The notes under the pieces: model-generated
The model's input: the letters and a program-made list of their open reading frames with translations, nothing else
Database searches by the model: none
Told to the model about the DNA's origin: nothing
Part shown: positions 16,313 to 60,423 of the stretch, one piece after another
Position numbering within the stretch: the first letter of the stretch is position 1
How the letters are laid out: every line of letters begins with the position of its first letter
Position numbers and translations under genes: made by a program
Source of the DNA: Candidatus Gastranaerophilales bacterium
Lineage (GTDB): Bacteria; Cyanobacteriota; Vampirovibrionia; Gastranaerophilales; Gastranaerophilaceae
Direction: 5' to 3'
Length of the DNA: 64,000 nucleotides
Assembly (NCBI GenBank): GCA_944323985.1
Contig: CALUUP010000001.1
Span: 37,029 to 101,028 of the forward strand

Positions 16313-16508
16313 AATAAAACCTTTCTCTTTTACAGGAAGTTTAAAATTTGTCAAACTTATTTTTTGTTAATTTTAAAAAAAAATGTTACAAAAGTAAAAA
16401 AAACTTTACAAAATTTTAAAAATGGAAATCTCTACTTGTAATTAGATTATGTTTTATTTATGATTGTTTTAAATGTATACGTAGTCAAAATATAAAGGGA
16501 ATAGCAAA

Positions 16509-25698: not shown

Positions 25699-27144
25699 AT
25701 GGGAATGGCAGCATCACAAGTTAGACTTTTACAGTTGACTGGCCGAAAAAATGATATCGGCAGGCAACTTCAAAGTTTGTCTTCTGAAAAAATGTCATTA
25801 ACCAGAGAAATGAAAGGTGTTACAAAAGACTATCAAAATGCTTTAAGTTCAAAAGTTTTTAAGTGGACAACGAATTCAGGGGCAAGTTATGTTGATTTAA
25901 GTTATAGTACTTTGATGAAACCTTCAAGTGCTAACGGGAATATTCCATATTTATTAACTAATACTAATGGTGCTGTTATGATAGACAGTACATATAAAAA
26001 ATATGCAGAAATGATTTCTTCGAATGGAGCATCCGGTGGTGATTATGAGTCTGTAAGAACTCAAATTTTAACAAGTTTATGTAATGGTCTAACTGAAGAA
26101 GATTTGGAAAAAGCTAGTGAAATGAATTCTGCTTTAAATGAAGCAGCGGAGAAAGTTAATAATTTAAAAGCTAGTGAACCTGATGAACCTGTTAAATACA
26201 GTAATGCCAGTACGTTTTTAGCCAATGCGGGTAATGTTTCCGGAATAGAAATTTCTAAGGGTGGAACTTTAGATTTAGGTAATGCAAGTACCGCAAAGGC
26301 AAATTTGAATTCTTTTATTAGTGGTTTAAAAACTAATATGTCTAATGTTTTATCTGATGAAGATAAGACCGCTTTTAATACTGTATGTGATAGTTTTTAT
26401 AGTGAATACTCTGTTTATATAGGCTCTTCATCAGAAAAGGCTAATAGTCTTTTGAATAATGATGTAAGTCCTTTACGAATTAGTGGAGCAAATTATACAT
26501 TAGATGTATCCAAAGCTATGGAAACTATTTTAGGGCAATATGAGGTTGAAGGAGGTACGGTAGAACAAAATTCTTACGGAACAATGACTTATGCTTGGCG
26601 TGATAAAACATCTAGTGAATGGCAAAGCTGGTCAACAGAATATCCGGCATGGGAAGCTGAGTATAATGAAGCAATGGATGAGTATAATCAAGCTGTAGAT
26701 AATAATAATCAAGTTTTTACATCTGAAAATGAATCTAAAATTGCCTTTTATGATAAATTGTTTAATGCAATTGTTGATAATGGGTGGGAATATAATAATA
26801 ATATTTCAGATGATGATTATTTAAATCAAATGTTACAAAATAATCAATTTTTAATTACGACAATGGATAGGTCTATTGATGATGATGGTAATACTTTTTA
26901 TGAATATGACAGTGCTATAGCATCAAACTTTGGAAATTTGGTTTCTGTAAATGATTCTGATGCTGCTAATGAAGCGTTAGCCGAGTATGAATATCAAAAA
27001 AGTATTATCAATGAAAAAGAAAGCCGTATTGATACAAGAATGCAAGATTTAGAAACAGAACAATCTGCCATTAATGAAATGATTAAAGGTATTGAAACGG
27101 TAAGAAATGATAATGTGGAGAGAACTTTTAGCATATTCTCATAA
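25699..27144 (+). CDS. Uncharacterised 'MGMxASQxRLL' family protein (paralog A)
   Basis: Conserved N- and C-terminal coiled coils shared with 42464-43948; divergent S/T/N/D-rich middle; no signal peptide. Confidence 0.75.
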   Translation: MGMAASQVRLLQLTGRKNDIGRQLQSLSSEKMSLTREMKGVTKDYQNALSSKVFKWTTNSGASYVDLSYSTLMKPSSANGNIPYLLTNTNGAVMIDSTYKKYAEMISSNGASGGDYESVRTQILTSLCNGLTEEDLEKASEMNSALNEAAEKVNNLKASEPDEPVKYSNASTFLANAGNVSGIEISKGGTLDLGNASTAKANLNSFISGLKTNMSNVLSDEDKTAFNTVCDSFYSEYSVYIGSSSEKANSLLNNDVSPLRISGANYTLDVSKAMETILGQYEVEGGTVEQNSYGTMTYAWRDKTSSEWQSWSTEYPAWEAEYNEAMDEYNQAVDNNNQVFTSENESKIAFYDKLFNAIVDNGWEYNNNISDDDYLNQMLQNNQFLITTMDRSIDDDGNTFYEYDSAIASNFGNLVSVNDSDAANEALAEYEYQKSIINEKESRIDTRMQDLETEQSAINEMIKGIETVRNDNVERTFSIFS

Positions 27145-32197: not shown

Positions 32198-34021
32198 CTA
32201 TGCCGTAGCTACATCATTCTGTTTTTCTTCTTGTGCAGATAATTGTGCCGCTATTTGAGCTAATTCTTCTTTAGATTTTGCGTTATTAATAGCACTTTCT
32301 AGTTCTTTATAAGAAGTTATATTTTTATTTAAAACAGCCAATTGATCCTTTACATTCTCTTTAGAAAATTCTTGTCCAAACATAAATGGAGTTGAATATT
32401 GAGAATCAAACATCTGATTTCCATAAGCTACCGCATATATTTCTGGACGTTTCAAAGTTGCTTTCATTAGTCTAATACCATATCCAGGATTATCACCACC
32501 GATTGCAATTTGGTAATTATTCTTTCCGTAAGTAGAAGGTTTCCACATTGACCATGTTTGAGTAGCATTAGGAACATATTCATTTAATGCTGTTGCATTC
32601 ATTGTAGGATCTTTAGCTAATGTTCTCATTGAAGCTGTTTTCAAATTTACAATTTCATTCATACCCTTTTGATAAGGTTTTTGAGTCTTTAACATACTAT
32701 CCATAAATGTTTTGTATTCTGCTTGACTAATACTTCCTTGTCCTATTTTATAATTACCTGCTGCATCTTGAGTATATCCTTTTATTCTATCAATCATTTT
32801 AGTAGAAGAATTTTCAGTAAGAAGCTTATCAAAGTCTGCTTTAGATTTGATATTATATAAGTTTCTTAATTCCTTTCTATTTTGATTTAATATACATTTT
32901 TGTTCCCTTAATAAAGCAATTTTATTTTGTTCAGAAAGTGGAGTTGCTAATAATTCAGCATCAATTGCATCCATATCTTTTTGAATTTTAGCTTCCATAT
33001 TTTTTATTTTTTCATCGTATTTATACTTAAAGTCATTAAATTTCTTAATACCATTAGTCCAGACTCTTTGCCACCAAACTTTAGAAGCACCTGAAACTCC
33101 ACCACCAGCAACATTAACAGCTGCAAGATCTGCTCTTACTGCATTAGATGTTGCTCTCCAAGCATTTACAGTTATATCTCTACCAAAGTTTGAAGCTGCT
33201 TCTATAGTTTTACCTACCAAACCAGTTCTTGATGTTGCAGCACTAGCTTTAGCCATTGTAACACCAGAATTAGAAGCAGATGTAGTAGCTCCTGTTCTTA
33301 AACCACTACCAAGACCTCTTAAACCAAATACTGATAAACTTGCAACAAGTGCATTTGTACAAATGTCTTGTTGAGCTTTATCTTTTTCAAGGTCTGTTTT
33401 AGCATTCTTTAACTCAGAAACACCTTTAGCTACACCAATAGTGCCCAAAACAGCTCCACCAGCAAGCATTCCATATCCAATTACAGGGCCTATTACAGGA
33501 ATAAAACTAGCACCTATAGCACCTATTGTAATTGCAGCATTTGTAAGCCCCTTTTTCCAATTCCAAGAGCCGTCTTTTTCTATCCTGACAAGACCTTTAC
33601 CAATATTTACAAAAGCAGTTCCTGCATTAGAAAGCCAACGTCCTGCTTTTGTCCAAAAACTGTCATCTTTTTTTCGTTTTACAACAATAGAGCTTGTGCC
33701 TGTTTTTTTATCGGTGTTATTTTCTATATCTTTTTTTGTGGTCTCTAATTCGTTTATTGTTGCATTTAAACCTAGAGTTTTTTTGACGTCTTCTTTATCT
33801 TTTTCTAATTGAGCAGCTTCTAATCTAGCTTTATAAACTTTGTTTTTTTCTGCACGTTCTTTTTCAAGACGTTTTTTATAATCTTCATAACTCTCATTTA
33901 GTGTTGAAACACTTGAAGAAGACGTTGTTGTTGATAAAAATCCACTCCAAGGATTTCCTATATTTCCATTATATGTGCCAACCATGCCAGCAGGCATTTG
34001 TATATTCATAAAATTCGTCAT
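32198..34021 (-). CDS. Lineage-specific hypothetical protein with a paired Gly/Ala-rich hydrophobic hairpin
   Basis: 607-aa ORF; coiled-coil N-region followed by GLTNAAITIGAIGASFIPVIGPVIGYGMLAGGAVLGTIGVAKGV. Confidence 0.65.
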   Translation of the reverse strand: MTNFMNIQMPAGMVGTYNGNIGNPWSGFLSTTTSSSSVSTLNESYEDYKKRLEKERAEKNKVYKARLEAAQLEKDKEDVKKTLGLNATINELETTKKDIENNTDKKTGTSSIVVKRKKDDSFWTKAGRWLSNAGTAFVNIGKGLVRIEKDGSWNWKKGLTNAAITIGAIGASFIPVIGPVIGYGMLAGGAVLGTIGVAKGVSELKNAKTDLEKDKAQQDICTNALVASLSVFGLRGLGSGLRTGATTSASNSGVTMAKASAATSRTGLVGKTIEAASNFGRDITVNAWRATSNAVRADLAAVNVAGGGVSGASKVWWQRVWTNGIKKFNDFKYKYDEKIKNMEAKIQKDMDAIDAELLATPLSEQNKIALLREQKCILNQNRKELRNLYNIKSKADFDKLLTENSSTKMIDRIKGYTQDAAGNYKIGQGSISQAEYKTFMDSMLKTQKPYQKGMNEIVNLKTASMRTLAKDPTMNATALNEYVPNATQTWSMWKPSTYGKNNYQIAIGGDNPGYGIRLMKATLKRPEIYAVAYGNQMFDSQYSTPFMFGQEFSKENVKDQLAVLNKNITSYKELESAINNAKSKEELAQIAAQLSAQEEKQNDVATA

Positions 34022-35088: not shown

Positions 35089-37344
35089 ATGAAAATTCAA
35101 AGAGTAGAGACATTAAATTTAAACAATTCAAAAAAGCAAAACAATACAAGACCAAATTTTCAAAGAAATTGGTCAGAGCACGTTAGCTGGGGTGCAAACT
35201 ATATAAAAGAGACAGGAAAAACAAATTTTAAGTTGTTTTCTTTTCCGGATGCAAAAGCAGTTTTTGTAGAAATAGCTAGTAGTATAGGTAAAAATTTTGG
35301 AAATATTCATGATAGAGCTGTACAAATAGTGACGGCTGTATCAGGTCTTATTACCGCACAAGCGATAAATGAAGATTCCAAAATTTATCCAATGAAACAT
35401 AATGGCGAAGGAGTTTATGAAGCTAACAATATTGATGCTAAAGCGGGGACTCCATATAGATATGTTGTAGTTGATAAAAATAACAATGTTAATACAGTTA
35501 AAGATCCTTATTCTAAAAAGCAAGATGATATTCACGGTTGGAGTGAAATTTATAATCAAGATAATTATGAATGGAAAAATACTAACTGGCTTGAAGGAAA
35601 AGATTCTAGAAGAATAACAAGAAAACCAGATGAAAAATTTAGAGGTTTGGAAAATTTAGTTATTTCAGAAATAAATATTCCAACATTATCTAAAGAGGGA
35701 GATTTTAAACATGCTTTTACTGTAATTGATAAAATTGCAAATGACAAAGTTGCTAATGCAATAGAAATAATGCCTGTAGAAAATACATATTCAAAACAAT
35801 GGGGATATGATGGAGTAGATAAGTTTGCAGTAAATAAAAATTTAGGTTCAGCAAAAGAACTAAAAGAATTAATAGATTATGCACATGGGAAAGGTCTAAA
35901 TGTCATAATGGATATGGTTCCAAATCATATTGGTCCAGATGGTAATTATTTAGAAAAAACGGGTCCATATACTGCTGGAAATACAGCTTGGGGTAGTGCT
36001 TATAATTATGAAGGACTTAATAATAAATATGTTAGAGATTATATGGCAAATGCCGCTCTTTGGTGGGCTAAAGAATTTAAAGTCGATGGGCTAAGGTTAG
36101 ATATGACTCAACACTGTCATTCTGATTATCTATTAAAACAAATTGTAGATGAAGTAAATGAACATGCACCGAGTGTTTTTCTAATAGCAGAAGATGGTAG
36201 AAATAACAAAAAAAATGTAACGGATATAAGTAGATATAATATTACACATGAAATGGAATTAAAGAAAATCGATGAAAGTGTTGATGATATTGCAAATCAA
36301 AGATGGCATACTTATCCTCAAGAAATAGGATTTGATAGTGAATGGGATTTTAAATACATTGAAACTTTACAGGATGCTGTTCTTGATATAAGTCCAAAAG
36401 TTATGAATGACTTAGATAATGATTTGAAAAATTCATTACATAGAGTTAAATATGTCATGAGTCATGACAATATTGGAAATAATGATGGCACAAGGCTTAT
36501 ACCGAAAATATTGGTAAAAAATTTAGGATTATTTTTTAATGTAGATGGATATGGAGATTGTGAAAAAGGACAAAATGCTGCACAAAGTTCTCAAAGACTT
36601 GCAGAATTAATCGTTTCTGATGATTTTGATAAGTTAAACGAAGAGCAATTAAGACAAAAATTAAATGACTGTGGTATTAGAACTTATATTTCAAAAGAAC
36701 ATTTAATTAATACATTTAAAACAGCATTGGCTAAACAAAGGCTGGCACAAGGAACTTTTATGACAACACCAGGTCCTAAAATGTATTTTCAAGGTGATGA
36801 AGTAGGAGATTTATCGCATTTTAAATTTTTTAGAGAATTTACAGATGAAAGAAGGGTAAGAGAAGAATCTGATGATTTTAAAAATGCAAAAATTAAAGAA
36901 AAAGGATATGATACTCTTGAAGAAACAGCTCGTCCAGACTGTATTGTTGGTAGAATTAAATATGAGGGTTATTTTAAGAATGCCTCTCAGCAAATGTTAG
37001 AATACAATAAAGATTTAAAAGAGTTGTTAGATACAAATAATGCTATTTCGAAAGGAGATATTGTTAGTACATATAAAGATAATACACATAATGTTCATAT
37101 ACATCAATTAAAATTTAACGATGAAGAGGTTTTAGTACTTAAAAATTTTGGAACTGGATTCCACAATAAAACTTATGAATACTATGGTTTTCCACAAAAT
37201 AGCACTTGGGAAGAAATTTTTAATAGTGATGATGCTAAATATGGTGGTAGTAATCTTACAAATAAAGGACGAAATGATATAACAAATCTAAATCAACATC
37301 TTTCAATGGCACCAAATAGTATTGTTATTTTGAAGAGAATATAA
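35089..37344 (+). CDS. GH13 alpha-amylase family enzyme with CBM48-like domain (TreZ/GlgB-like)
   Basis: WGYDG, DMVPNHIGPDGNYL, catalytic DGLRLD, IAED and SHDNIGN; PGPKMYFQGDE. Confidence 0.82.
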   Translation: MKIQRVETLNLNNSKKQNNTRPNFQRNWSEHVSWGANYIKETGKTNFKLFSFPDAKAVFVEIASSIGKNFGNIHDRAVQIVTAVSGLITAQAINEDSKIYPMKHNGEGVYEANNIDAKAGTPYRYVVVDKNNNVNTVKDPYSKKQDDIHGWSEIYNQDNYEWKNTNWLEGKDSRRITRKPDEKFRGLENLVISEINIPTLSKEGDFKHAFTVIDKIANDKVANAIEIMPVENTYSKQWGYDGVDKFAVNKNLGSAKELKELIDYAHGKGLNVIMDMVPNHIGPDGNYLEKTGPYTAGNTAWGSAYNYEGLNNKYVRDYMANAALWWAKEFKVDGLRLDMTQHCHSDYLLKQIVDEVNEHAPSVFLIAEDGRNNKKNVTDISRYNITHEMELKKIDESVDDIANQRWHTYPQEIGFDSEWDFKYIETLQDAVLDISPKVMNDLDNDLKNSLHRVKYVMSHDNIGNNDGTRLIPKILVKNLGLFFNVDGYGDCEKGQNAAQSSQRLAELIVSDDFDKLNEEQLRQKLNDCGIRTYISKEHLINTFKTALAKQRLAQGTFMTTPGPKMYFQGDEVGDLSHFKFFREFTDERRVREESDDFKNAKIKEKGYDTLEETARPDCIVGRIKYEGYFKNASQQMLEYNKDLKELLDTNNAISKGDIVSTYKDNTHNVHIHQLKFNDEEVLVLKNFGTGFHNKTYEYYGFPQNSTWEEIFNSDDAKYGGSNLTNKGRNDITNLNQHLSMAPNSIVILKRI

Positions 37345-37358
37345 AATATTTATTAACA

Positions 37359-37392
37359 AAAGGGCGATATCGTATATACGATATCGCCCTTT
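37359..37392. terminator. 34-bp perfect palindrome, probable terminator of the GH13 gene
   Basis: aaagggcgatatcgtat|atacgatatcgcccttt. Confidence 0.7.
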
Positions 37393-37435
37393 ACAAATAT
37401 TTACTCCATGATAATATTATAGAAAAGGACTGATT

Positions 37436-37519
37436 ATGGCATATTTAGCAAAAAGACATCATCATACTCATACAAACCCGAAAGGGCTTGGAGTCTTGTG
37501 TCTTCTCTCCGCTAAGTAA
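37436..37519 (+). CDS. Putative His leader peptide MAYLAKRHHHTHTNPKGLGVLCLLSAK
   Basis: Hand translation; 4 CAT codons within 5 positions; RBS AAGGA 6 nt upstream; possible TTTACA-N16-TAATAT promoter. Confidence 0.65.
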   Translation: MAYLAKRHHHTHTNPKGLGVLCLLSAK

Positions 37520-37586
37520 ACTCCTTTCCCCATCGGCTCTTTCGGGATATTAAATTGAGAGATTGTAAAGAGTTCGATAAAAGGAG
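37477..37586 (+). promoter_or_regulatory. Putative translational attenuator (SD-sequestering versus anti-sequestering helices)
   Basis: ctccttt (37521-27) pairs with aaaggag (37580-86), and atcggctcttt (37532-42) with aaagagttcgat (37567-78). Alternative: cccgaaaggg (37477-86) with ctctttcggg (37537-46), and ggagt with actcc. Confidence 0.6.
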
Positions 37587-37596
37587 AAAATTTTAA

Positions 37597-38826
37597 ATGT
37601 CATTAGTAAATATAATATCAGCAATAGGAAACAATAGCAGTGTTTATCCGTTAATAGTCCGTGATTGCGGAATAGAAGTTCCATCTAAAGTCGCAATGAC
37701 TTATAATCAAAACTTAAAAGATTCAAAGCAAATGGCTTATAATGCTACTAGAGAAAGATTAATAGATGAATATGGAACCTCTATTATTTGGCTTGGAGGG
37801 ATTCCTGCTATGGAAAAATTATGTAATTGGGGAATAAAAAAAATGGGGTATTCTCCAAAAGTAAACTCCAGCTTATTAAAAGAAACTTCTAATCAGGGTT
37901 TAAAATATAATATTGAAAAGTTTAAAAATTTAGCTTCAAAAGAAGTAAAAGAAATGGAAAAAGTGCTTAATAATAAATCAACATATCAAAAACTCCTTGC
38001 TGGAAAATTTATTCTTTCTACTGCTATTCCTGTTGCATTAATGGGATATTTTTTACCTAAAATGAATTTTGCACTTACTGACAAAATAAGAAAACGCCAA
38101 GAAAACTCTAAAGAGGGGGTAAATATAATAAAAAAATCAATAGACTTAAAACCAGAAAATACAACTCCGACTTTTAAAGGAATAACATCTACTTTAGCTA
38201 ATATGTCTACCGTTAACAAAATGGCGATTACAGATGGGGGACTGACAGTTGGTAGAGTTGGAACTGCAAGAAATAAATTTGAAAGAATTGAAATGGCTTT
38301 TAAAATGAGTATGATGATGTTTTTAAACTTTGTTGCACCTATTTGGATCGCCAAAGGTTTAGATAATTTATCAAATAAGTTATTCAAAACAAATGTTAAT
38401 TTAGATCCAATGTTATTAAATGATAAAGAATTTTTAGAAAATATTAAAAATAATACTCTTGAAATGCCAAAAGGAAATATTATTGAGTTTTTAGATAATA
38501 AACCTGATTCTAAATTTTCTAAACTTTGCGAAAAATATGCAGGAGTTAAATATTTAAAAAATCGAATTAGAGATCCAAGAGAATTTGTAGATGAAAATAA
38601 GATTTCAAAATTTCAACAAGAAATAGAAAAATTCGCAAGTCAGTCCAGAGAAAGTGGAAATGTTGAAAATTTTGCAAAAAAAGCATTAAAAGTTAAATCT
38701 GCAAATATCTTAGCGAATGTTGGTATTAGTAGTTTTCTTCTTGCAGTGACACTTCCTAAAATTACTTTTATATTAAGAAAGAAAATAACAGGCTCTGATG
38801 CCGAACCCGGTCTAATGTCGAAGTAA
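37597..38826 (+). CDS. Uncharacterised internally duplicated membrane protein (paralog 3 of 3), downstream of a His leader
   Basis: 409-aa ORF with AGGAG RBS; two related halves; similar to 14867-16312 and 11069-12280. Confidence 0.75.
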   Translation: MSLVNIISAIGNNSSVYPLIVRDCGIEVPSKVAMTYNQNLKDSKQMAYNATRERLIDEYGTSIIWLGGIPAMEKLCNWGIKKMGYSPKVNSSLLKETSNQGLKYNIEKFKNLASKEVKEMEKVLNNKSTYQKLLAGKFILSTAIPVALMGYFLPKMNFALTDKIRKRQENSKEGVNIIKKSIDLKPENTTPTFKGITSTLANMSTVNKMAITDGGLTVGRVGTARNKFERIEMAFKMSMMMFLNFVAPIWIAKGLDNLSNKLFKTNVNLDPMLLNDKEFLENIKNNTLEMPKGNIIEFLDNKPDSKFSKLCEKYAGVKYLKNRIRDPREFVDENKISKFQQEIEKFASQSRESGNVENFAKKALKVKSANILANVGISSFLLAVTLPKITFILRKKITGSDAEPGLMSK

Positions 38827-40221: not shown

Positions 40222-41594
40222 TATAAAACCTCTGATTTATCTTTAACTTTAGAAGCAATTAATGCTGCAATTACAAGACATAGAGCTCCTATTAAGAATG
40301 TATATTCCCAGTGATAATTAACTCCACCAATAACTTTAAAATCGCATTTGTTAATTATCCAAGAAACTAAAGTGCAAACAAAGACTTGTGGTCCAGCTAT
40401 AAAAATGTTAAAAATACCCATAACAGAACCTTCAGTACCTGGTTTAATATATTGAGAAAGCATTGCAAAAGGTAAAGCACAAATACTAGCCCAACCGATA
40501 CCTGAGATAGCCATTAGAATAGCTACAATCTTTATATTTGTAAAAATTGCCATACCTAAAAACGCAAAAGCCATTGATAACATAGATATGATATGTACTT
40601 TTTTATTTCCAAATTTAACAGAAAGAATTCCAATAGGAATGGCAACTAAGAAACAAACTAAATTAAATATAGCAAAGCATATAGAAGAAAAATTAGTTCC
40701 CGCAAGTACTGCCGCATCATAACTTGCTTTAACAATTTCAGAAACTTCTGACAAATCCGGTACTCCAAAAACAGTATGGACACAATATTGTGTAAAGTAA
40801 ATCATCATACACATATTACCAATCCAGGTGAAAAATTGCATCCAACAAATTTTTCCTACTTCAGGTGATAAAGCAAAAAAATCTTTTAAGGATTTTATAA
40901 AATCAAATTTTTCGTGATTTTCATCTTGTTTAGGTAAAAACCTTCTTTCTTTTATAACAATACAAGTCCATAACATGCCAAGAGAAAAAGCTAATGCTGC
41001 CATTATAAATTGTGCGTTTATCGACATTTGATAATTAAACGCCCATTTTAAAAATGGTGCAGTTCCCGCAGCAACAACAGAACCTAAACCAATTGCTAAG
41101 CTAATATAAGAATTTGCAATAGAATGTTGTTCAGATGGGACAACGTCAGGAACTAAAGCTCTATAAGGACCTTGAGCAATATTCACACAAGCATCTAAAA
41201 TCCAAATCATAGCCGCCGCAAATAACAACGCAGACCATTCTGGAAGATGTAGATGAGTTAATGATCCAAAACAAGTTGTAATATATTCAGAATTAGGCAA
41301 AGCCCAAAGAGCAAGTGCGGAAAGTAATGCTCCTCCAAGTAAATAAGGTCTTCTTCTTCCAAAAATAGAAGTCGTTTTATCACTTAAAGCTCCAATGAGC
41401 GGTTGAACAACCATTCCGGTGAAAGGTCCTGCTAACCATATTAAACCAAATAGAAAAGGTGATGCACCTAAATCTTCAGTCACAGGTCCTGATAAGATTA
41501 TCCTCATTTGCCAAGCAAATTGTAATCCAAAAAAACCTAGCGCAAAACTTAAAAACTTAGCTGTATTAAACCTTTTTAACTCATTTTCTGCCAT
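40221..41594 (-). CDS. MFS sugar transporter (SLC45/maltose-sucrose type)
   Basis: FGLQFAW, IWLAGP.TGMVVQP.IG..SD, GRRRPY, N.AQGPYRALVPD, MGIFNIFI..PQ. Start set after RBS GAGG. Confidence 0.85.
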   Translation of the reverse strand: MAENELKRFNTAKFLSFALGFFGLQFAWQMRIILSGPVTEDLGASPFLFGLIWLAGPFTGMVVQPLIGALSDKTTSIFGRRRPYLLGGALLSALALWALPNSEYITTCFGSLTHLHLPEWSALLFAAAMIWILDACVNIAQGPYRALVPDVVPSEQHSIANSYISLAIGLGSVVAAGTAPFLKWAFNYQMSINAQFIMAALAFSLGMLWTCIVIKERRFLPKQDENHEKFDFIKSLKDFFALSPEVGKICWMQFFTWIGNMCMMIYFTQYCVHTVFGVPDLSEVSEIVKASYDAAVLAGTNFSSICFAIFNLVCFLVAIPIGILSVKFGNKKVHIISMLSMAFAFLGMAIFTNIKIVAILMAISGIGWASICALPFAMLSQYIKPGTEGSVMGIFNIFIAGPQVFVCTLVSWIINKCDFKVIGGVNYHWEYTFLIGALCLVIAALIASKVKDKSEVL

Positions 41595-42463: not shown

Positions 42464-43948
42464 TTAACCGGAGAATGTTTTGTAAGAAGCTTCGATATTA
42501 TCATTAATAACTTTATCTACAGCTTCAATTTCAGTTGTAATTTGAGTTCTTTCATTATCAAGTCTTTGTAATTTTAACTCTAAGTTTCTATCTTCTGCTT
42601 GAATAATAGACGTTTTAGCGTTAATTTCTTGTTGTTTTTTATCATATTCATATTGAGCATATTCATATTGGTTATATGCATCTTGATATGCTGCATTGTC
42701 AGTTACAGTTTCTGCTGTTAAATCAATATATCTATAAGATATAATTTCTCCAGATGTAGAATCTATAGTTGGTATGCCGATTTTAGTAATTCTACCTTGA
42801 GAATCAAATTCTAACTGACATTTATCTGTTGGGTTTGATGTTGTGTATTTACCGTTAGGTGTGTATGAAAAAGTATCTGCAAATCCATCTGGACTGTCAA
42901 CATCTGATTTTAATGCGAATTGTAATGTTTTTGTTCCTGTTTCACTTGTTACAAGAAATACATAGAAATCATCTTCTGTAATACTTGAATCACTTGAACC
43001 ATATGAATTTCTAATAGCTTCTCTGTATTTTTCCCAGTCAAATGAAGAGAATTCTTCCATCTTTGATGCAGTATTAAAGTCGTATGCAGTTTGACCAGCG
43101 ATAGTAGTAGCTCCTCCATTAGGGTTCGTAATAGTTGTTGTACCACCATTTGCTTTTTGGAAATATTCAATACCTTCCAAAGTTTTTAACGAATATGTTC
43201 CATCTTCATTTGCTTCAACGTATGGAGAACCTTCATATAATGCTGCAACATCTCCAGATGATGTTCTTACATAATAATTACCTAAATCAGAAGATTTTAT
43301 TTTTAAAGATACTTCTTCAGGTCGTTCTCTTAAATGGCTAAAATTTGATTTATCTTCAGCGGCATCATAATCTTCTTTACTAGTCTTTTTAAAATAAGTT
43401 TTACCAGCTTCAAATTTTTCAACTGGCACATAGCCACCAGCAACACGTTCCATATAATTAGAAATATCTTCTTGACCATTAACTAAAGAATCTCCTGAAA
43501 TTTCGGTATTATCTATGTAAAAATCGCCTTCTTGATAAGGTTCATCATTTTTTACCTCATAAATACCAGTTCCTTGAACAAAACTTGGTTGTACTGGGTT
43601 AACAGAGATATCTGCGCCTGCTTTACCAACGACAGAAGAACCATAATTTGAAGTTATAGCTGCACCTGTTGCACTTTGTTGAATTTCTACATTGTATAAT
43701 TCTCCTGAAGGCTTTACGGTACCAATAGTAAATGTAGTTGCTCCATCTGTTCCAGAATACTTAATGGTTGTATAATCATTAGTAGATGGAGGGGTTGGTA
43801 CTGTCATTGCAAGTAAACTGTTATACAATGCAGTGCATTGTTGGGATAAAATTGTTCTTTCTTGGTTAATTTGTTGACCTTGATACTCAAGATTTGATTG
43901 TCTAGCTTGTAGGCTTAATAATCTTGCTTGTGATGCTGACATACCCAT
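42464..43948 (-). CDS. Uncharacterised 'MGMxASQxRLL' family protein (paralog B)
   Basis: MGMSASQARLLSL N-terminus; C-terminal YEY..K..IN.K...I...D..LE...DN.E...F; RBS AAGGAG. Confidence 0.78.
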   Translation of the reverse strand: MGMSASQARLLSLQARQSNLEYQGQQINQERTILSQQCTALYNSLLAMTVPTPPSTNDYTTIKYSGTDGATTFTIGTVKPSGELYNVEIQQSATGAAITSNYGSSVVGKAGADISVNPVQPSFVQGTGIYEVKNDEPYQEGDFYIDNTEISGDSLVNGQEDISNYMERVAGGYVPVEKFEAGKTYFKKTSKEDYDAAEDKSNFSHLRERPEEVSLKIKSSDLGNYYVRTSSGDVAALYEGSPYVEANEDGTYSLKTLEGIEYFQKANGGTTTITNPNGGATTIAGQTAYDFNTASKMEEFSSFDWEKYREAIRNSYGSSDSSITEDDFYVFLVTSETGTKTLQFALKSDVDSPDGFADTFSYTPNGKYTTSNPTDKCQLEFDSQGRITKIGIPTIDSTSGEIISYRYIDLTAETVTDNAAYQDAYNQYEYAQYEYDKKQQEINAKTSIIQAEDRNLELKLQRLDNERTQITTEIEAVDKVINDNIEASYKTFSG

Positions 43949-57149: not shown

Positions 57150-59702
57150 ATGAGTTTATTTAATGGAATCAATCAGTTTGTAAATTTTGAAATTAATGGT
57201 AAGAAGTTAGCTTTCAGTGATATTGATAAAGATAATAATGGAGAAATTTCTACAGAAGAATATAATAGTTTATTAGAAGAAGTAAAATTAGATTCTATTG
57301 ATTTTAAAACATTAGATACAAATTCTGATAATTTAATTTCGAATGATGAATTTTTAAAATATGAAAAGAAATTAGAAATACAAGAAGTAGTTAATAATTA
57401 TTCAAAGACTATTGCAATAGATTTTGCAGGAAAATCAGATTGTATAGTCCAACTAAATACTGAATTAAAAGATTTAATTAATGATTTTGTTGATAATTAT
57501 TCTGGTGATTTATCTGAAATGGTTAAAGATTTTGAAGAACAATTCACAGTAAAGTATGAAGAAATAAAAAATAGTATTATGGTAGGTGACGTGAATACTA
57601 TAAAATCAAAAGTTTTAGATGAAGTTTATTCAAATTATCTTAAAGTAGAGAATGCTGAAAATCAAATAGATAGCAGTTCTTTAAAACAGTTTGCTTTAAT
57701 GTTAGAAAGTGAAGCAAATAATTTTATAAAAAATTACAAAGGTGATTCGCTAGAAAAAGATTTAGCAGAATATTTAGAAGGCTGTACTTATAAGACAGAC
57801 TATGAAAGATTAGAATCTGCGATTGAAGATTTTAATTTAGGATTGAGTAGTTTAGGAGCTATGATTGATAATGGTGGAGATCTTTTAGCATTGAAAGATT
57901 TTGTTAATGAATTTTTAAATACGGCTTTAGATAAAGGTATTGTTCTTAATATAGATGGTCAAGAGATAAGAGCAGAAGAAGATATAACAAAAGTTCTTGA
58001 TAAATTTACTGATGGTGATGAATTAAAATTCGCTATGGATAAAGTTTTTTTAGAATTAAAGTCTGGAGAAGTATTAGAAGATCAAGAAAATAATAAAGAA
58101 TCAGAACCTACTATAAGGGGCGAAAATTTTACATTGGATTCATCAAAAATAGATTATCCAGATTGGTATGATGGTACAAAACATTTTAAGAGTTTAAGTT
58201 CTATAAAATCATATTTAGAAGATTTGGATTTAAAGAGAAGTCTTCAAAATCAATTGTTAGACAGATGTTCAGAGAATGGTGTTTCTTATAGTCAGATGTC
58301 TTTAGTATTTGAAAATTCATATAGTGAAGCTTTAGAAGAAGCTTTAAAAACAGTTGATTTTAAGAGGATATCTTTGGGTCTTGTTTCAAAAAATAGAACA
58401 ATAGAAAGCATTCAGTCAATAATAGAAAATATAGTAGAAAAGATCAATGATAGTATGTCTTCAGCAATTGATAAAATGTATAAATCAGAAGCTGATTTTG
58501 ATATAGAAGATATAGATTATAGTGTTATAAATAAGCAAGATGATGAAGAGGAGTTAAGATATGGCAATGAAAATGATCCAATAAGAACAGAAGGAAGCAG
58601 TAAAGTAATGGAAGCACAGGCAGATGTAATTTCTCGTCGATTAAGACCCCAATTGCTAGAGAAAGCAGAAGCAATGTGTCTTACAAATGATGTAGGATTT
58701 GATTTAGATGTATTTAATCAAATTTTAGAGGATTCAAAGTCAATAGCATATAAACAATCAATAGATACAACAAGAAGAAATGATATAATCTTAGATTTAG
58801 ATAATATGTTGGAAGTTTTTACAAAGAATTTCAAGATTGATTTTGAGAATTGGGTAAAAACAAATAAATCAGATACTTTTGTTGATGAAAGCAAAGATGT
58901 TGTTGGTATAGATCAAGAAAATAATAAAGAATCAGAACCTACTATAAGGGGCGAAAATTTTACATTGGATTCATCAAAAATAGATTATCCAGATTGGTAT
59001 GATGGTACAAAACATTTTAAGAGTTTAAGTTCTATAAAATCATATTTAGAAGATTTGGATTTAAAGAGAAGTCTTCAAAATCAATTGTTAGACAGATGTT
59101 CAGAGAATGGTGTTTCTTATAGTCAGATGTCTTTAGTATTTGAAAATTCATATAGTGAAGCTTTAGAAGAAGCTTTAAAAACAGTTGATTTTAAGAGGAT
59201 ATCTTTGGGTCTTGTTTCAAAAAATAGAACAATAGAAAGCATTCAGTCAATAATAGAAAATATAGTAGAAAAGATCAATGATAGTATGTCTTCAGCAATT
59301 GATAAAATGTATAAATCAGAAGCTGATTTTGATATAGAAGATATAGATTATAGTGTTATAAATAAGCAAGATGATGAAGAGGAGTTAAGATATGGCAATG
59401 AAAATGATCCAATAAGAACAGAAGGAAGCAGTAAAGTAATGGAAGCACAGGCAGATGTAATTTCTCGTCGATTAAGACCCCAATTGCTAGAGAAAGCAGA
59501 AGCAATGTGTCTTACAAATGATGTAGGATTTGATTTAGATGTATTTAATCAAATTTTAGAGGATTCAAAGTCAATAGCATATAAACAATCAATAGATACA
59601 ACAAGAAGAAATGATATAATTTTAGATTTAGATAATATGTTGGAAGTTTTTACAAAGAATTTCAAGATTGATTTTGAGAATTGGATAAATAGAAAAAAAT
59701 AA
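57150..59702 (+). CDS. Acidic EF-hand-containing protein with a duplicated 258-aa C-terminal module
   Basis: EF-hand-like loops DIDKDNNGEISTEE and LDTNSDNLISNDE; strong RBS AAGGAGG; near-identical internal repeat. Confidence 0.75.
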   Translation: MSLFNGINQFVNFEINGKKLAFSDIDKDNNGEISTEEYNSLLEEVKLDSIDFKTLDTNSDNLISNDEFLKYEKKLEIQEVVNNYSKTIAIDFAGKSDCIVQLNTELKDLINDFVDNYSGDLSEMVKDFEEQFTVKYEEIKNSIMVGDVNTIKSKVLDEVYSNYLKVENAENQIDSSSLKQFALMLESEANNFIKNYKGDSLEKDLAEYLEGCTYKTDYERLESAIEDFNLGLSSLGAMIDNGGDLLALKDFVNEFLNTALDKGIVLNIDGQEIRAEEDITKVLDKFTDGDELKFAMDKVFLELKSGEVLEDQENNKESEPTIRGENFTLDSSKIDYPDWYDGTKHFKSLSSIKSYLEDLDLKRSLQNQLLDRCSENGVSYSQMSLVFENSYSEALEEALKTVDFKRISLGLVSKNRTIESIQSIIENIVEKINDSMSSAIDKMYKSEADFDIEDIDYSVINKQDDEEELRYGNENDPIRTEGSSKVMEAQADVISRRLRPQLLEKAEAMCLTNDVGFDLDVFNQILEDSKSIAYKQSIDTTRRNDIILDLDNMLEVFTKNFKIDFENWVKTNKSDTFVDESKDVVGIDQENNKESEPTIRGENFTLDSSKIDYPDWYDGTKHFKSLSSIKSYLEDLDLKRSLQNQLLDRCSENGVSYSQMSLVFENSYSEALEEALKTVDFKRISLGLVSKNRTIESIQSIIENIVEKINDSMSSAIDKMYKSEADFDIEDIDYSVINKQDDEEELRYGNENDPIRTEGSSKVMEAQADVISRRLRPQLLEKAEAMCLTNDVGFDLDVFNQILEDSKSIAYKQSIDTTRRNDIILDLDNMLEVFTKNFKIDFENWINRKK
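58080..59684 (+). repeat. Direct repeat, 2 x 774 bp (58080-58853 and 58911-59684), period 831 bp, in frame
   Basis: Copies match by eye except one synonymous ATC/ATT difference; 57-bp unique spacer. Confidence 0.92.
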
Positions 59703-59775: not shown

Positions 59776-60423
59776 ATGAAAAAGTTTTTGATAGTTTTAT
59801 TATTGATGAGTTTTGCCCTGCCTTCTAATGCTTTTTTCTGGAACAAGAAAGATAAAGCTTTAGAAAAAGAGTTGGAAGGTAAGGGGTATGCGGGTACTTT
59901 GCCTAATATAGGTGATAAAGTAGAAAAATCAAAAACAAAAGTAACAACTCCGATATTTGAATCTCAAGAGGGTTTTGATAATCCTGCTGATTTAAAGCCG
60001 GTACCTAAAGATAACCCTGCTTTTATAAATATTATTCAGAAAAAGGATAAGAATTCTCCTTTTGTTGATGATGCTATAGAGATTATTCCAATGTTGGAAA
60101 AACTCGTAGATTGTATTGAAGATAATGAAAATGTTCAATTGTTTGTCACAAAAGCTAATTTGTTATCATTAAATATTGATAATTTAGGAGAAAAGTATAA
60201 AGGAAAACCGGAAAGTTATTATGAATCTTTTAGAAAGCTTCAAGATGTTAATCGATACGTAAAATCAATTTCATTATTGAGAAGAGAGGCAATAACATAT
60301 CAACGATATTTAGCATATTCTGAAAGCGGTTCTATTTATAATCCTGAAAACATAGCACAGCAGTTAGAATATTTAAAAGAGGAATTAAATACTGTGATAT
60401 TGATGTTACGCGAAGAGTATTAA
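59776..60423 (+). CDS. Exported hypothetical protein
   Basis: Sec signal peptide (MKKFLIVLLLMSFALPSNA); helical C-terminal domain. Confidence 0.7.
   Translation: MKKFLIVLLLMSFALPSNAFFWNKKDKALEKELEGKGYAGTLPNIGDKVEKSKTKVTTPIFESQEGFDNPADLKPVPKDNPAFINIIQKKDKNSPFVDDAIEIIPMLEKLVDCIEDNENVQLFVTKANLLSLNIDNLGEKYKGKPESYYESFRKLQDVNRYVKSISLLRREAITYQRYLAYSESGSIYNPENIAQQLEYLKEELNTVILMLREEY

What the first reader, a model, noticed from the sequence alone, without database searches (positions are those of the whole stretch)
37390..37599. His-rich leader peptide coupled to an SD-sequestering hairpin (translational attenuation)
Seen: RBS AAGGA precedes MAYLAKRHHHTHTNPKGLGVLCLLSAK (37436-37519). Downstream, ctccttt pairs with the AAAGGAG SD of the 37597 gene, and atcggctcttt pairs with aaagagttcgat, hiding the SD. 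A mutually exclusive helix (cccgaaaggg/ctctttcggg plus ggagt/actcc) needs the segment about 6-20 nt after the His codons. Inference: His starvation switches on translation rather than read-through, and the target is an unknown membrane protein rather than a his gene.
Basis: partly seen in the sequence, partly recalled or inferred. Interest (0 to 1): 0.78.

Follow-up and report, generated by a model that had tools for sequence, protein, structure and literature searches.

The report
Histidine-codon leader switch for membrane-protein gene
A 27-codon mini-gene rich in histidine codons sits in front of an unknown membrane-protein gene of an uncultured gut bacterium. Where ribosomes pause on it most likely decides whether the RNA hides or exposes the main gene's ribosome-binding site, so the protein would be made when histidine runs short.

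Summary
Window 37390-37599 (a Gastranaerophilales/Melainabacteria genome) holds a promoter, a 27-codon sORF (37436-37519, His codons at 37457-37471) and two mutually exclusive RNA folds. One fold buries the Shine-Dalgarno sequence of the 409-aa gene at 37597. The sORF is kept in frame in all 53 related leaders examined, with 3-5 His codons each. The other two frames are open in 2 and 4 of 53. Both folds are conserved. In a clade about 50% identical, the helices are rebuilt from different sequences, and the long-range helix shows compensatory changes (0/500 shuffles). In a thermodynamic model the SD is closed on naked RNA (median P-open 0.016). It opens when a ribosome sits on the first three His codons (0.39-0.5) and closes again once the ribosome moves on. 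The regulated protein has 0-1 His in every leader-bearing homologue. Leader-less distant homologues have 2-10. Gut Melainabacteria are reported to lack histidine biosynthesis. Best reading: a His-tRNA-sensing translational attenuator controlling an uncharacterised membrane protein, perhaps for histidine acquisition. It is a new variant of a known mechanism. Nothing has been tested experimentally.

The parts
37357..37389 (+). Perfect palindromic hairpin (AAAGGGCGATATCGTATATACGATATCGCCCTTT region). It is the likely terminator of the upstream alpha-amylase-family gene and marks the 5' boundary of the leader unit.
   Evidence: Sequence. The weak Rfam look-alikes at this spot only reflect the hairpin. 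The terminator scan did not call it because the loop is too short.
37390..37417 (+). Promoter: -35 TTTACA (37390-37395), a 16-nt spacer, and an extended -10 TGaTAATAT (37409-37417). The expected transcript start is near 37424.
   Evidence: Promoter scan. TTTAC...TGnTAnnAT is conserved at the same place in the orthologous loci (alignment).
37425..37429 (+). Shine-Dalgarno sequence (AAGGA) of the leader sORF, 6 nt before its ATG.
   Evidence: 42 of 53 related leaders have an SD here. The other 11 have the ATG a few nt behind the -10 box, which looks leaderless.
37436..37519 (+). Leader sORF of 27 codons: MAYLAKRHHHTHTNPKGLGVLCLLSAK, stop TAA.
   Evidence: The frame is kept in 53/53 related leaders despite indels in the N-terminal part. 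The other two frames are open in 2 and 4 of 53.
37457..37471 (+). Regulatory His-codon run CAT CAT CAT ACT CAT. This is the sensing site and forms region 1 together with ACTC 37466-37469.
   Evidence: Every leader has 3-5 His codons. A modelled ribosome with its A site on His1-His3 opens the main SD.
37466..37494 (+). Local 5' hairpin of the OFF state (regions 1:2). ACUC 37466-69 pairs with GAGU 37491-94, CAA 37473-75 with UUG 37488-90, and CCC 37477-79 with GGG 37484-86, with loop GAAA.
   Evidence: MFE. Covariation at alignment columns 36-49 (AU 31, GC 8, none unpaired) and 35-50 (AU 20, GC 7, CG 4).
37477..37494 (+). Region 2: b (CCCGAAAGGGCU, 37477-37488) plus b' (GGAGU, 37490-37494). This is the 5' strand of the anti-sequestor (ON) hairpin and lies inside the sORF.
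   Evidence: RNAalifold consensus. 98.6% of cells are paired in 39 leaders. Compensatory changes are seen across clades.
37520..37527 (+). Region 3a: the anti-SD segment d (ACUCCUUU), immediately after the sORF stop codon. It pairs either with b' (ON) or with the main SD (OFF).
   Evidence: CUCC is invariant in 39/39 leaders. In the ~50%-identity clade it is replaced by UCAAUUC, which is complementary both to GAAUUGA (b') and to GAAUUGG at the SD.
37532..37546 (+). Region 3b: segment e (AUCGGCUCUUUCGGG). Positions 37535-37546 pair with b (ON). Positions 37532-37542 pair with g (OFF).
   Evidence: This segment is nearly invariant although it is non-coding.
37567..37578 (+). Region 4a: segment g (AAAGAGUUCGAU), the partner of e in the sequestering hairpin.
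   Evidence: MFE. 92% of cells are paired, with double changes at three pairs.
37580..37586 (+). Region 4b: the Shine-Dalgarno sequence AAAGGAG of the main gene. It is paired with d in the OFF state.
   Evidence: P(SD unpaired) is 1.7e-5 on naked RNA and 0.096 with a ribosome at His1.
37597..38826 (+). The regulated gene: a 409-aa all-helical membrane protein of unknown function, with no histidine.
   Evidence: ORF. No family or structure match. AF2 model with pLDDT 79. 0 His.
37502..37508 (+). Segment c (CUUCUCU), complementary to GAGAGA at 37557-37562 (segment f). This is a possible extra or alternative pairing and is unresolved.
   Evidence: Alignment. In L020/L045, UCCCU co-varies with AGGGAG. 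The topology is awkward with either main fold, so it is listed as uncertain.

Best explanation
This is a ribosome-mediated translational attenuator that reads the supply of charged tRNA-His.

The transcript starts near 37424 and first encodes a 27-codon leader.

OFF state. This holds on free RNA, or when ribosomes run through the leader quickly. The 5' part folds on itself: ACUC of the His run pairs with GAGU, and the CCC-GAAA-GGG hairpin forms. That leaves ACUCCUUU and AUCGGCUCUUU free to pair with the main gene's AAAGGAG Shine-Dalgarno sequence and with AAAGAGUUCGAU. The ribosome-binding site is buried.

ON state. When His-tRNA is scarce, the leading ribosome waits on the first His codons (37457-37465). 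It covers region 1 but leaves CCCGAAAGGGCU and GGAGU free. These pair with GGCUCUUUCGGG and ACUCC, which takes the anti-SD strand away from the SD. The 409-aa protein can then be translated. That protein contains no histidine, so it can still be made during His starvation.

What is shown and what is inferred.
- Shown: the sORF, the His run and both alternative folds are conserved and co-vary, and the modelled SD accessibility depends on ribosome position.
- Inferred: that the sORF is translated, that pausing at His codons is the physiological trigger, and that the protein serves histidine acquisition. These gut bacteria are reported to lack His biosynthesis.
For: 1. The sORF is conserved as an ORF. 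It is in frame in 53/53 leaders, against 2 and 4 of 53 for the other frames, despite indels before the His run. It has an SD in 42 leaders and a leaderless-type start in 11.
2. Each leader has 3-5 His codons. The His run is the only peptide feature shared by the two clades, for example window ...KRHHHTHTNPKGLGVL..., L043 ...LHHKHHSNLKGL* and L130 ...QHHHIHIVPTRLMD*.
3. Both folds are conserved.
   - The ON consensus comes from RNAalifold, with 98.6% of cells paired.
   - The OFF fold is 93% paired, with 23 double-change cells against 6.0 in shuffles, 0/500.
   - The b:e helix across both clades is 92.6% paired. Seven of its 13 pairs show compensatory change, 0/500 shuffles.
   - In the ~50% clade the toggling strand is UCAAUUC. 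It is complementary to both GAAUUGA (region 2) and GAAUUGG-AG (SD). The His codons CAUCAU themselves pair with AUGAUG of region 2.
4. Occupancy model on 43 leaders. Median P(SD open) is 0.016 for naked RNA, 0.39 with the A site at His1, about 0.5 at the third His, 0.02 at the last His, and about 1e-4 with the ribosome on b.
5. Window energies. Naked RNA: OFF -43.4 against ON -34.8 kcal/mol. With a ribosome stalled at His1: ON -32.2 against OFF -31.5. P-open rises from 1.7e-5 to 0.096.
6. Negative control. The same model shows no such dependence on the leaders of the sister clade.
7. The target protein has 0-1 His in all 54 leader-bearing homologues. The 80 distant homologues, which lack the His leader, have 2-10.
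8. Gut Melainabacteria lack histidine biosynthesis genes (PMC3787301).
9. A validated precedent for the mechanism exists in the mycobacterial polycysteine sORFs (bioRxiv 10.1101/834739).
Against: - There is no experimental or transcript-level evidence. The only metatranscriptome hit covers part of an orthologue's coding region and not the leader.
- Within the main clade the ON helix is almost invariant, so its covariation rests mainly on the second clade and on one sequence, L038. The sequences are related, so the shuffle tests overstate significance.
- The thermodynamic model is at equilibrium and assumes a footprint of -15 to +12 nt. Any ribosome in the first half of the sORF opens the SD in the model, not only one on His codons.
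- In the main clade a terminating ribosome also opens the SD (median 0.30). Single-structure MFE classification is noisy: the SD is free in 31/53 stalled MFEs.
- In the window itself the modelled opening at His codons is only about 0.1.
- Being His-free is not unique to this protein. Six of the 51 larger ORFs in the window lack His.
- CAU outnumbers CAC 171:4 in the His runs, against 180:50 in the window's genes. So RNA-level constraint on these codons cannot be excluded.
- The function of the target is unknown.
Confidence: 0.7

Rival explanations
1. This is a nascent-peptide arrest sensor. The His-rich peptide itself, perhaps together with a ligand such as a metal ion or metabolite in the exit tunnel, stalls the ribosome and flips the same RNA switch. 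His-tRNA supply would play no role.
For: Distant homologues of the same membrane-protein family carry a different leader whose amino-acid sequence is strongly conserved with synonymous codon changes (...LMNL[IV]WGL-stop in 76/77 loci). Peptide-dependent control may therefore be native to this gene family. His side chains bind metals. The RNA switch evidence fits any cause of stalling at this position.
Against: Outside the His run the peptide is not conserved between clades. Residues after the run change in ways that follow RNA pairing rather than peptide chemistry: K to E or N, L to P or Q, G to R. Within the run only the number of His is kept; the interspersed residues vary (T, A, I, S, M, K, Q, L, N). 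The target protein is depleted of His, which is expected for His starvation and not for another signal.
Confidence: 0.12
2. This is constitutive unmasking, or translational coupling. Any translation of the sORF transiently melts the sequestering hairpin, so the sORF merely couples main-gene output to leader translation and the His codons are incidental.
For: In the main clade the stop codon lies 0-8 nt before the anti-SD ACUCC. A modelled terminating ribosome opens the SD (median 0.30; 0.30 in the window).
Against: In the ~50% clade the stop lies directly after b, far from the anti-SD. There a terminating ribosome keeps the SD closed (L043: 0.000), yet the His run and the four-segment architecture are retained. 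Coupling would not require 3-5 His codons in 53/53 leaders, nor a His-free target.
Confidence: 0.08
3. This is an RNA-only switch, either a riboswitch or the binding site of a protein or sRNA. The sORF would be a by-product.
For: Segments such as GCUCUUUCGGGAUAU are almost invariant although non-coding. A possible extra pairing, c:f, hints at a more complex fold.
Against: There is no Rfam family at gathering or relaxed thresholds. The near-invariance is explained by each segment having two partners. The reading frame, start signals and His run are conserved far beyond what the other frames show. The second clade keeps the architecture with entirely different helix sequences and no conserved unpaired core.
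Confidence: 0.05
4. The sORF encodes a functional small membrane peptide that works with the 409-aa protein.
For: The C-terminus is hydrophobic in the main clade (GVLLLL). The sORF always lies next to the same gene.
Against: The hydrophobic tail is absent in the second clade, where the stop follows ...NLKGL. The N-terminus varies in length and sequence. Third-codon positions are fixed where RNA pairing needs them.
Confidence: 0.03

Closest known systems
Polycysteine leaderless sORF attenuators of mycobacteria (Ms5788A; Canestrari et al., bioRxiv 10.1101/834739)
   Same: A short ORF with a run of codons for one amino acid lies at the 5' end of the transcript. [quoted passage not shown] Some of the leaders here also look leaderless.
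   Different: The amino acid is His, not Cys. The phylum is Melainabacteria, not Actinobacteria. Here a four-segment 1:2 / 2:3 / 3:4 design with an explicit anti-sequestor hairpin is conserved. The target is a single uncharacterised membrane protein rather than biosynthetic genes for the sensed amino acid. This case is untested experimentally.
his operon leader (hisL) transcription attenuator of enterobacteria (Rfam His_leader)
   Same: [quoted passage not shown] The position of the ribosome selects between alternative hairpins 1:2/3:4 and 2:3. Expression rises when charged tRNA-His is scarce (established knowledge).
   Different: hisL has 7 consecutive His codons and its 3:4 hairpin is an intrinsic terminator. 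In the window there is no U-tract, and 3:4 contains the SD. The Rfam model does not match. The target is not a his biosynthetic operon, and these organisms reportedly lack that pathway.
ermC / cat leader-peptide translational attenuation
   Same: A ribosome stalled on a short leader ORF remodels a hairpin that hides the SD of the downstream gene (as summarised).
   Different: In those systems the stall is caused by an antibiotic together with a specific nascent peptide. Here the conserved feature is a codon run for one amino acid, and the rest of the peptide is free to vary.
T-box leaders that control amino-acid transporters or act on translation (for example actinobacterial ileS; PMC1262725)
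   Same: They sense tRNA charging and can act by SD sequestration. In Firmicutes they often control uptake genes in auxotrophs (own knowledge).
   Different: T-boxes bind uncharged tRNA directly and need no ORF. No T-box or other Rfam family matches here.
LEU element upstream of actinobacterial leuA (PMC1262725)
   Same: A candidate leader ORF with a codon run whose RNA pairs with the SD of the downstream gene.
   Different: In the LEU element the codon run itself pairs with the SD, and mutation of the Leu codons was reported not to affect regulation. Its authors favoured a protein-binding model. Here a separate anti-SD strand toggles between two partners.

Membership tests
Leader-peptide (ribosome-mediated) attenuators, general class | A short translated ORF at the 5' end of the transcript carries a cluster of codons for one amino acid. 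| tested here: met
   The sORF at 37436-37519 has 4 His codons among 5 consecutive codons. Its frame is kept in 53/53 leaders, with 3-5 His codons each. Translation itself was not tested.
Leader-peptide (ribosome-mediated) attenuators, general class | Mutually exclusive RNA structures (1:2 and 3:4 against 2:3), with the choice depending on ribosome position. | tested here: met
   Both folds are found, conserved and co-varying. The model gives an open SD only when the ribosome is on or before His1-3.
Classical transcription attenuator (hisL type) | The 3:4 hairpin is an intrinsic terminator, that is a GC-rich stem directly followed by a U-tract. | tested here: not met
   The scan finds no terminator-like site in 36800-38200. 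The hairpin is followed by AUAAAAGGAG.... U7 does follow the hairpin in relatives L129/L134 and L130/L135.
Classical transcription attenuator (hisL type) | Match to the Rfam His_leader covariance model. | tested here: not met
   No Rfam match at gathering thresholds in the whole window. No His_leader match at E<=10 in 37300-37700.
Classical transcription attenuator (hisL type) | Controls biosynthetic genes for the sensed amino acid. | tested here: not met
   The downstream gene is a single 409-aa membrane protein with no known family. The next gene is convergent.
Translational attenuation by SD sequestration (ermC / mycobacterial Cys sORF type) | The SD of the regulated gene is base-paired in the default fold. 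| tested here: met
   In the MFE, 37521-27 pairs with 37580-86. P(SD open) is 1.7e-5 in the window and has a median of 0.016 over 43 leaders. The anti-SD CUCC is invariant.
Translational attenuation by SD sequestration (ermC / mycobacterial Cys sORF type) | A ribosome stalled in the leader frees the SD. | tested here: met
   This is a model result only. Median P-open is 0.39 at His1 and about 0.5 at His3. No such effect appears in control leaders.
Translational attenuation by SD sequestration (ermC / mycobacterial Cys sORF type) | Expression responds to the cognate signal, here His-tRNA charging. | not testable with these tools
   This needs reporters, toeprints or ribosome profiling. The public RNA runs gave no leader coverage.
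Nascent-peptide arrest leaders (TnaC, SecM, SpeFL type) | The amino-acid sequence of the arrest motif is conserved while codons vary synonymously. | tested here: not met
   Beyond the His run the peptide differs between clades, and its changes follow RNA pairing. By contrast the sister-clade leader ...LMNLIWGL* does show this signature.
Riboswitch / T-box | Match to a described aptamer or T-box model, with a conserved unpaired ligand-binding core. | tested here: not met
   No Rfam match. The second clade keeps the helices but not the sequences.

The most novel reading that the evidence does not exclude
The 409-aa protein and its relatives would be a new, structurally unprecedented family of nutrient-acquisition membrane proteins of gut Melainabacteria. 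Each lineage would be gated by its own ribosome-sensing leader. A His-codon run would switch on a His-free histidine (or His-peptide) uptake protein in these His auxotrophs. A separate, sequence-conserved ...LMNLIWGL-stop peptide would control the sister lineage in response to a different signal. The leader would then directly reveal the substrate of an orphan transporter family.
Probability: 0.25. Interest if true: 0.8.

Novelty: new variant of a known kind. Interest (0 to 1): 0.6.

Why it matters
Leader-peptide attenuation is textbook biology, but nearly all known cases terminate transcription and control biosynthetic operons of cultured bacteria.

- This would be a well-conserved histidine-specific version that acts on translation, in an uncultured phylum sister to Cyanobacteria.
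- It controls a membrane protein with no known relative or fold.
- Because the sensor names its signal, it gives a concrete and testable functional lead for an orphan protein family: made when histidine is short, in organisms that cannot make histidine.
- It suggests that auxotrophic gut bacteria use codon-run leaders to control acquisition rather than synthesis.
- The complete absence of histidine from the regulated protein, in contrast to its unregulated homologues, is a clean example of a starvation-induced protein being purged of the limiting amino acid.
- The different conserved leader in the sister lineage hints at a wider set of ribosome-based sensors in this group.

Tried and rejected
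- Rfam. A search of the whole window at gathering thresholds and of 37300-37700 at E<=10 gave only chance hits to the upstream palindrome.
- Protein identity. Pfam, NCBIfam, PADLOC and a PDB profile search found nothing for the protein or for ten distant relatives.
- Structure. The first AF2 model, from 17 close sequences, was too poor to use (pLDDT 53). A second model from 48 sequences reached pLDDT 79, but Foldseek against PDB found no similar fold (best E 0.59, TM <= 0.17).
- Other copies in the window. There are none. The look-alike NHHTHITNP at 40776-40868 is antisense to Met-rich codons of the MFS gene and was dismissed as chance.
- Transcript evidence. One metatranscriptome held 6% of the window's words. 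Another held contigs only of an orthologue's coding part. Neither gives information on the 5' end or the leader.
- Single-MFE classification of ON and OFF states was too noisy to rely on, so ensemble probabilities were used instead.
- Column-based counting of the d:SD and c:f pairings on alignment A2 was abandoned because MAFFT misaligned those segments. Duplex energies against shuffles were used instead, and per-sequence z is only about -1.8 to -2.1.
- The idea that the sister-clade leader works by the same SD-sequestering logic was tested and not supported.
Full report
**What is there.** The window is AT-rich (29.5% G+C). Its closest relatives are metagenome-assembled genomes of Candidatus Gastranaerophilales / Melainabacteria. 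Between an alpha-amylase-family gene that ends at 37344 and a 409-codon ORF that starts at 37597 lie the following features:
- a perfect palindromic hairpin (37357-37389);
- a promoter with an extended -10 (TTTACA-16-TGATAATAT, 37390-37417);
- an SD (AAGGA, 37425-29);
- a 27-codon sORF (37436-37519, MAYLAKRHHHTHTNPKGLGVLCLLSAK);
- 77 nt of non-coding RNA ending in the SD AAAGGAG (37580-86) of the main gene.

CUCCUUU (37521-27) pairs with AAAGGAG. AUCGGCUCUUU (37532-42) pairs with AAAGAGUUCGAU (37567-78). The competing helix is CCCGAAAGGGCU (37477-88) with GGCUCUUUCGGG (37535-46), plus GGAGU (37490-94) with ACUCC (37520-24). The minimum-energy fold of the leader is the SD-sequestered one (-43.4 kcal/mol, z = -2.0). 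No Rfam family matches.

**Conservation of the small ORF.** The 409-aa protein has thousands of homologues, all unnamed.
- Forty-three loci from species-level genomes (69-95% identical proteins) all carry the sORF in the same frame. It has a variable-length N-terminus, a basic residue, and then the run HHH(T)H or a variant with at least three His.
- A second clade, about 50% identical to the window protein (L043, L126-L135), carries its own His sORFs: MEKLIKNLHHKHHSNLKGL*, MDTLITSKLHLHHINLKRL*, MLNTNILKLHHHHHCNLR*, MSFTTIKTQHHHIHIVPTRLMD* and others.
- Over all 53 leaders the His frame is open from an ATG in 53. The other two frames are open in 2 and 4.
- There are 3-5 His codons per leader.
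- Forty-two leaders have an SD. Eleven have the ATG a few bases behind the -10 box, as in leaderless mRNAs.
- The only peptide feature common to both clades is the His run. The C-terminal GVLLLL of the main clade is missing in the second clade, where the stop follows directly after segment b.

**Conservation of the two folds.**
- In the main clade the non-coding segments ACUCC and GCUCUUUCGGGAUAU are almost invariant.
- RNAalifold returns the long anti-sequestor hairpin as the consensus, with 98.6% of cells paired. There is little variation there, so that result alone says little.
- The OFF fold (local hairpin plus e:g) is 93% paired and shows 23 double-change cells against 6.0 in shuffles (0/500). 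The cleanest case is A-U (31 sequences) against G-C (8 sequences) with none unpaired, between the first base of the Asn/Asp codon and the second base of the Leu/Pro codon.
- The second clade is the decisive evidence. All four segments have different sequences but the same logic. Region 2 is CCUGAAAGGGCUG...GAAUUGAUG. Region 3 is UCAAUUC...CAGCCUUUUCAGG. Region 4 is AAAAGGC...GAAUUGGAG. The strand UCAAUUC can pair either with GAAUUGA in region 2 or with GAAUUGG overlapping the SD. The His codons CAUCAU pair with AUGAUG of region 2.
- An arms-only alignment of the b and e segments from both clades gives 92.6% pairing. Seven of 13 pairs show compensatory change, 17 cells against 4.2 in shuffles, 0/500.
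- These tests ignore phylogenetic relatedness and so overstate significance. The rebuilt helices in the second clade are nevertheless hard to explain otherwise.

**Does ribosome position matter in the way the model needs?** I computed the ensemble probability that the main SD is unpaired while a 28-nt stretch (A site -15 to +12) is held single-stranded.
- Over 43 leaders the median is 0.016 for naked RNA and 0.39 with the A site on the first His. It peaks at about 0.5 on the third His, falls to 0.02 on the last His, is about 1e-4 while the ribosome covers segment b, and is 0.30 at the stop codon.
- For the window, naked RNA prefers OFF by 8.6 kcal/mol (-43.4 against -34.8). With a ribosome at His1 the two states are isoenergetic (-32.2 against -31.5), and P-open rises from 1.7e-5 to 0.096.
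- The same calculation on 24 leaders of the sister clade shows no dependence at all (median 0.42-0.49 everywhere). The pattern is therefore not an artefact of the method.
- Limits: this is an equilibrium model. Any ribosome in the first half of the sORF opens the SD, not only one on His codons. In the main clade a terminating ribosome also opens it, because the stop lies 0-8 nt before the anti-SD. In the second clade the stop lies right after b and a terminating ribosome keeps the SD closed, as in the classical trp/his design. This argues against simple coupling as the conserved function.

**The regulated protein.** It has no Pfam, NCBIfam, PADLOC or PDB-sequence relative.
- An AlphaFold model from 48 sequences (pLDDT 79, pTM 0.70) is all-helical with four roughly 40-residue helices. 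It has no Foldseek match in the PDB.
- It contains no histidine in 409 residues, whereas the window's proteins average 1.23%.
- All 54 leader-bearing homologues have 0 or 1 His.
- The 80 distant homologues recovered from metagenomes have 2-10 His, and none has a His sORF. The window's own paralogue (14867-16354, minus strand, 27% identical) has about five His by eye in its translation and no leader sORF.
- His-free proteins are not rare in this genome (6 of 51 larger ORFs). The contrast between clades of one family is therefore the meaningful point.
- Di Rienzi et al. (eLife 2013, PMC3787301) report that gut Melainabacteria lack the genes for histidine synthesis. There is thus no his operon to control, and a His-starvation-induced, His-free membrane protein is most simply read as part of histidine acquisition. 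That last step is inference.

**Mechanism and rivals.** The best-supported reading is a His-tRNA-sensing translational attenuator (confidence 0.7).
- Nascent-peptide arrest sensor for another signal (0.12). It is kept alive mainly by the sequence-conserved leader of the sister clade. It is weakened by the lack of peptide conservation outside the His run and by the His-free target.
- Constitutive unmasking by any leader translation (0.08). It is weakened by the second clade's stop-codon position.
- RNA-only switch (0.05).
- Functional micropeptide (0.03).

In L129/L134 and L130/L135 the e:g hairpin is followed by U7. Transcription termination may therefore contribute there. In the window there is no such tract.

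**Comparison with what is known.**
- In working principle this is the hisL/trpL design, with an SD-sequestering output like ermC.
- The closest validated system is the mycobacterial polycysteine leaderless sORFs, where ribosomes stalled in the Cys run block a structure that hides the next gene's ribosome-binding site (10.1101/834739).
- It is not a member of the Rfam His_leader family. There is no model match, no terminator and no his operon.
- I found no description of leader peptides in Melainabacteria.

I therefore rate it a new variant of a known kind. It is of moderate-to-good interest because it attaches a specific physiological signal to an orphan membrane-protein family in an uncultured gut lineage.

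Noticed in passing
L046-L125 (e.g. L053 about 128 to 44 nt upstream of the main ATG at 2498; L059; L114): Distant homologues (25-35% identity) of the 409-aa protein carry a different upstream sORF in 76 of 77 loci. It ends ...RRNSIIKANAPIV[KR]LMNL[IV]WGL-stop, 4-79 nt before the main ATG. Its amino-acid sequence is conserved while third-codon positions and the stop codon vary, which is the signature of a sequence-specific regulatory (arrest-type?) peptide. My SD-accessibility model shows no ribosome-position effect there, so it must work differently. The end ...NL..GL-stop faintly resembles the ...NLKGL-stop of the His leaders.
   Followed up: partly
window 14867-16354 (- strand): A paralogue of the regulated protein (27% identity over most of its length, about five His by eye in its translation). 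It has a short 5' region behind a TTGACA promoter-like site and no leader sORF.
   Followed up: partly
L129 and L134 (about 1440-1490); L130 and L135 (about 1430-1480): In these members of the ~50% clade, the hairpin equivalent to e:g is a long perfect stem directly followed by UUUUUUU. That makes it terminator-like, and it sits inside the SD-sequestering helix. It suggests combined transcriptional and translational attenuation, or an ancestral terminator form.
   Followed up: partly
window 37357-37389: A perfect 14-bp palindrome (GGGCGATATCGTAT/ATACGATATCGCCC) flanked by A-run and T-run. It is a likely bidirectional terminator of the amylase-family gene, and the -35 box of the leader promoter starts in its 3' T-tail.
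   Followed up: no
window 25699-27144 (+), 32198-34021 (-), 42464-43948 (-), 57150-59702 (+), 59776-60423 (+): Several large proteins with no or almost no histidine (0/481, 0/607, 1/494, 2/850, 0/215). Four have no Pfam family. The 850-aa one has weak sub-threshold EF-hand hits at its N-terminus. None has a His leader in the window. Low histidine may be a broader trait of lineage-specific, perhaps envelope, proteins in this His-auxotrophic group.
   Followed up: partly
window 58575 and 59406 (within ORF 57150-59702): Two identical stretches about 830 nt apart, showing the same 40-residue string in a reverse-frame translation and duplicated weak tblastn hits. This indicates a long internal repeat in the 850-aa gene.
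   Followed up: no
window 40776-40868 (+), inside the MFS gene on the - strand: A 30-codon antisense ORF, MDTILCKVNHHTHITNPGEK..., resembles the leader's HHHTHTNP. It is the reverse complement of Met-rich codons (CAT = ATG reversed) and was judged coincidental.
   Followed up: yes
L025 (2845-2953); L027, L029, L030 (about 2856-2957): Leader variants with 30-40 nt inserted between the anti-SD segment and segment e. In L027/L030 the G-U pair of helix b:e is replaced by G-C (CCCUUUCGGG). In L025 the modelled SD is open even on naked RNA (0.80), so the switch may be weakened.
   Followed up: no
window 37502-37508 with 37557-37562: CUUCUCU near the end of the sORF is complementary to GAGAGA in the loop of the sequestering hairpin. 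L020/L045 change both sides together (UCCCU / AGGGAG). The pairing would be a pseudoknot with either main fold and its role is unclear.
   Followed up: partly
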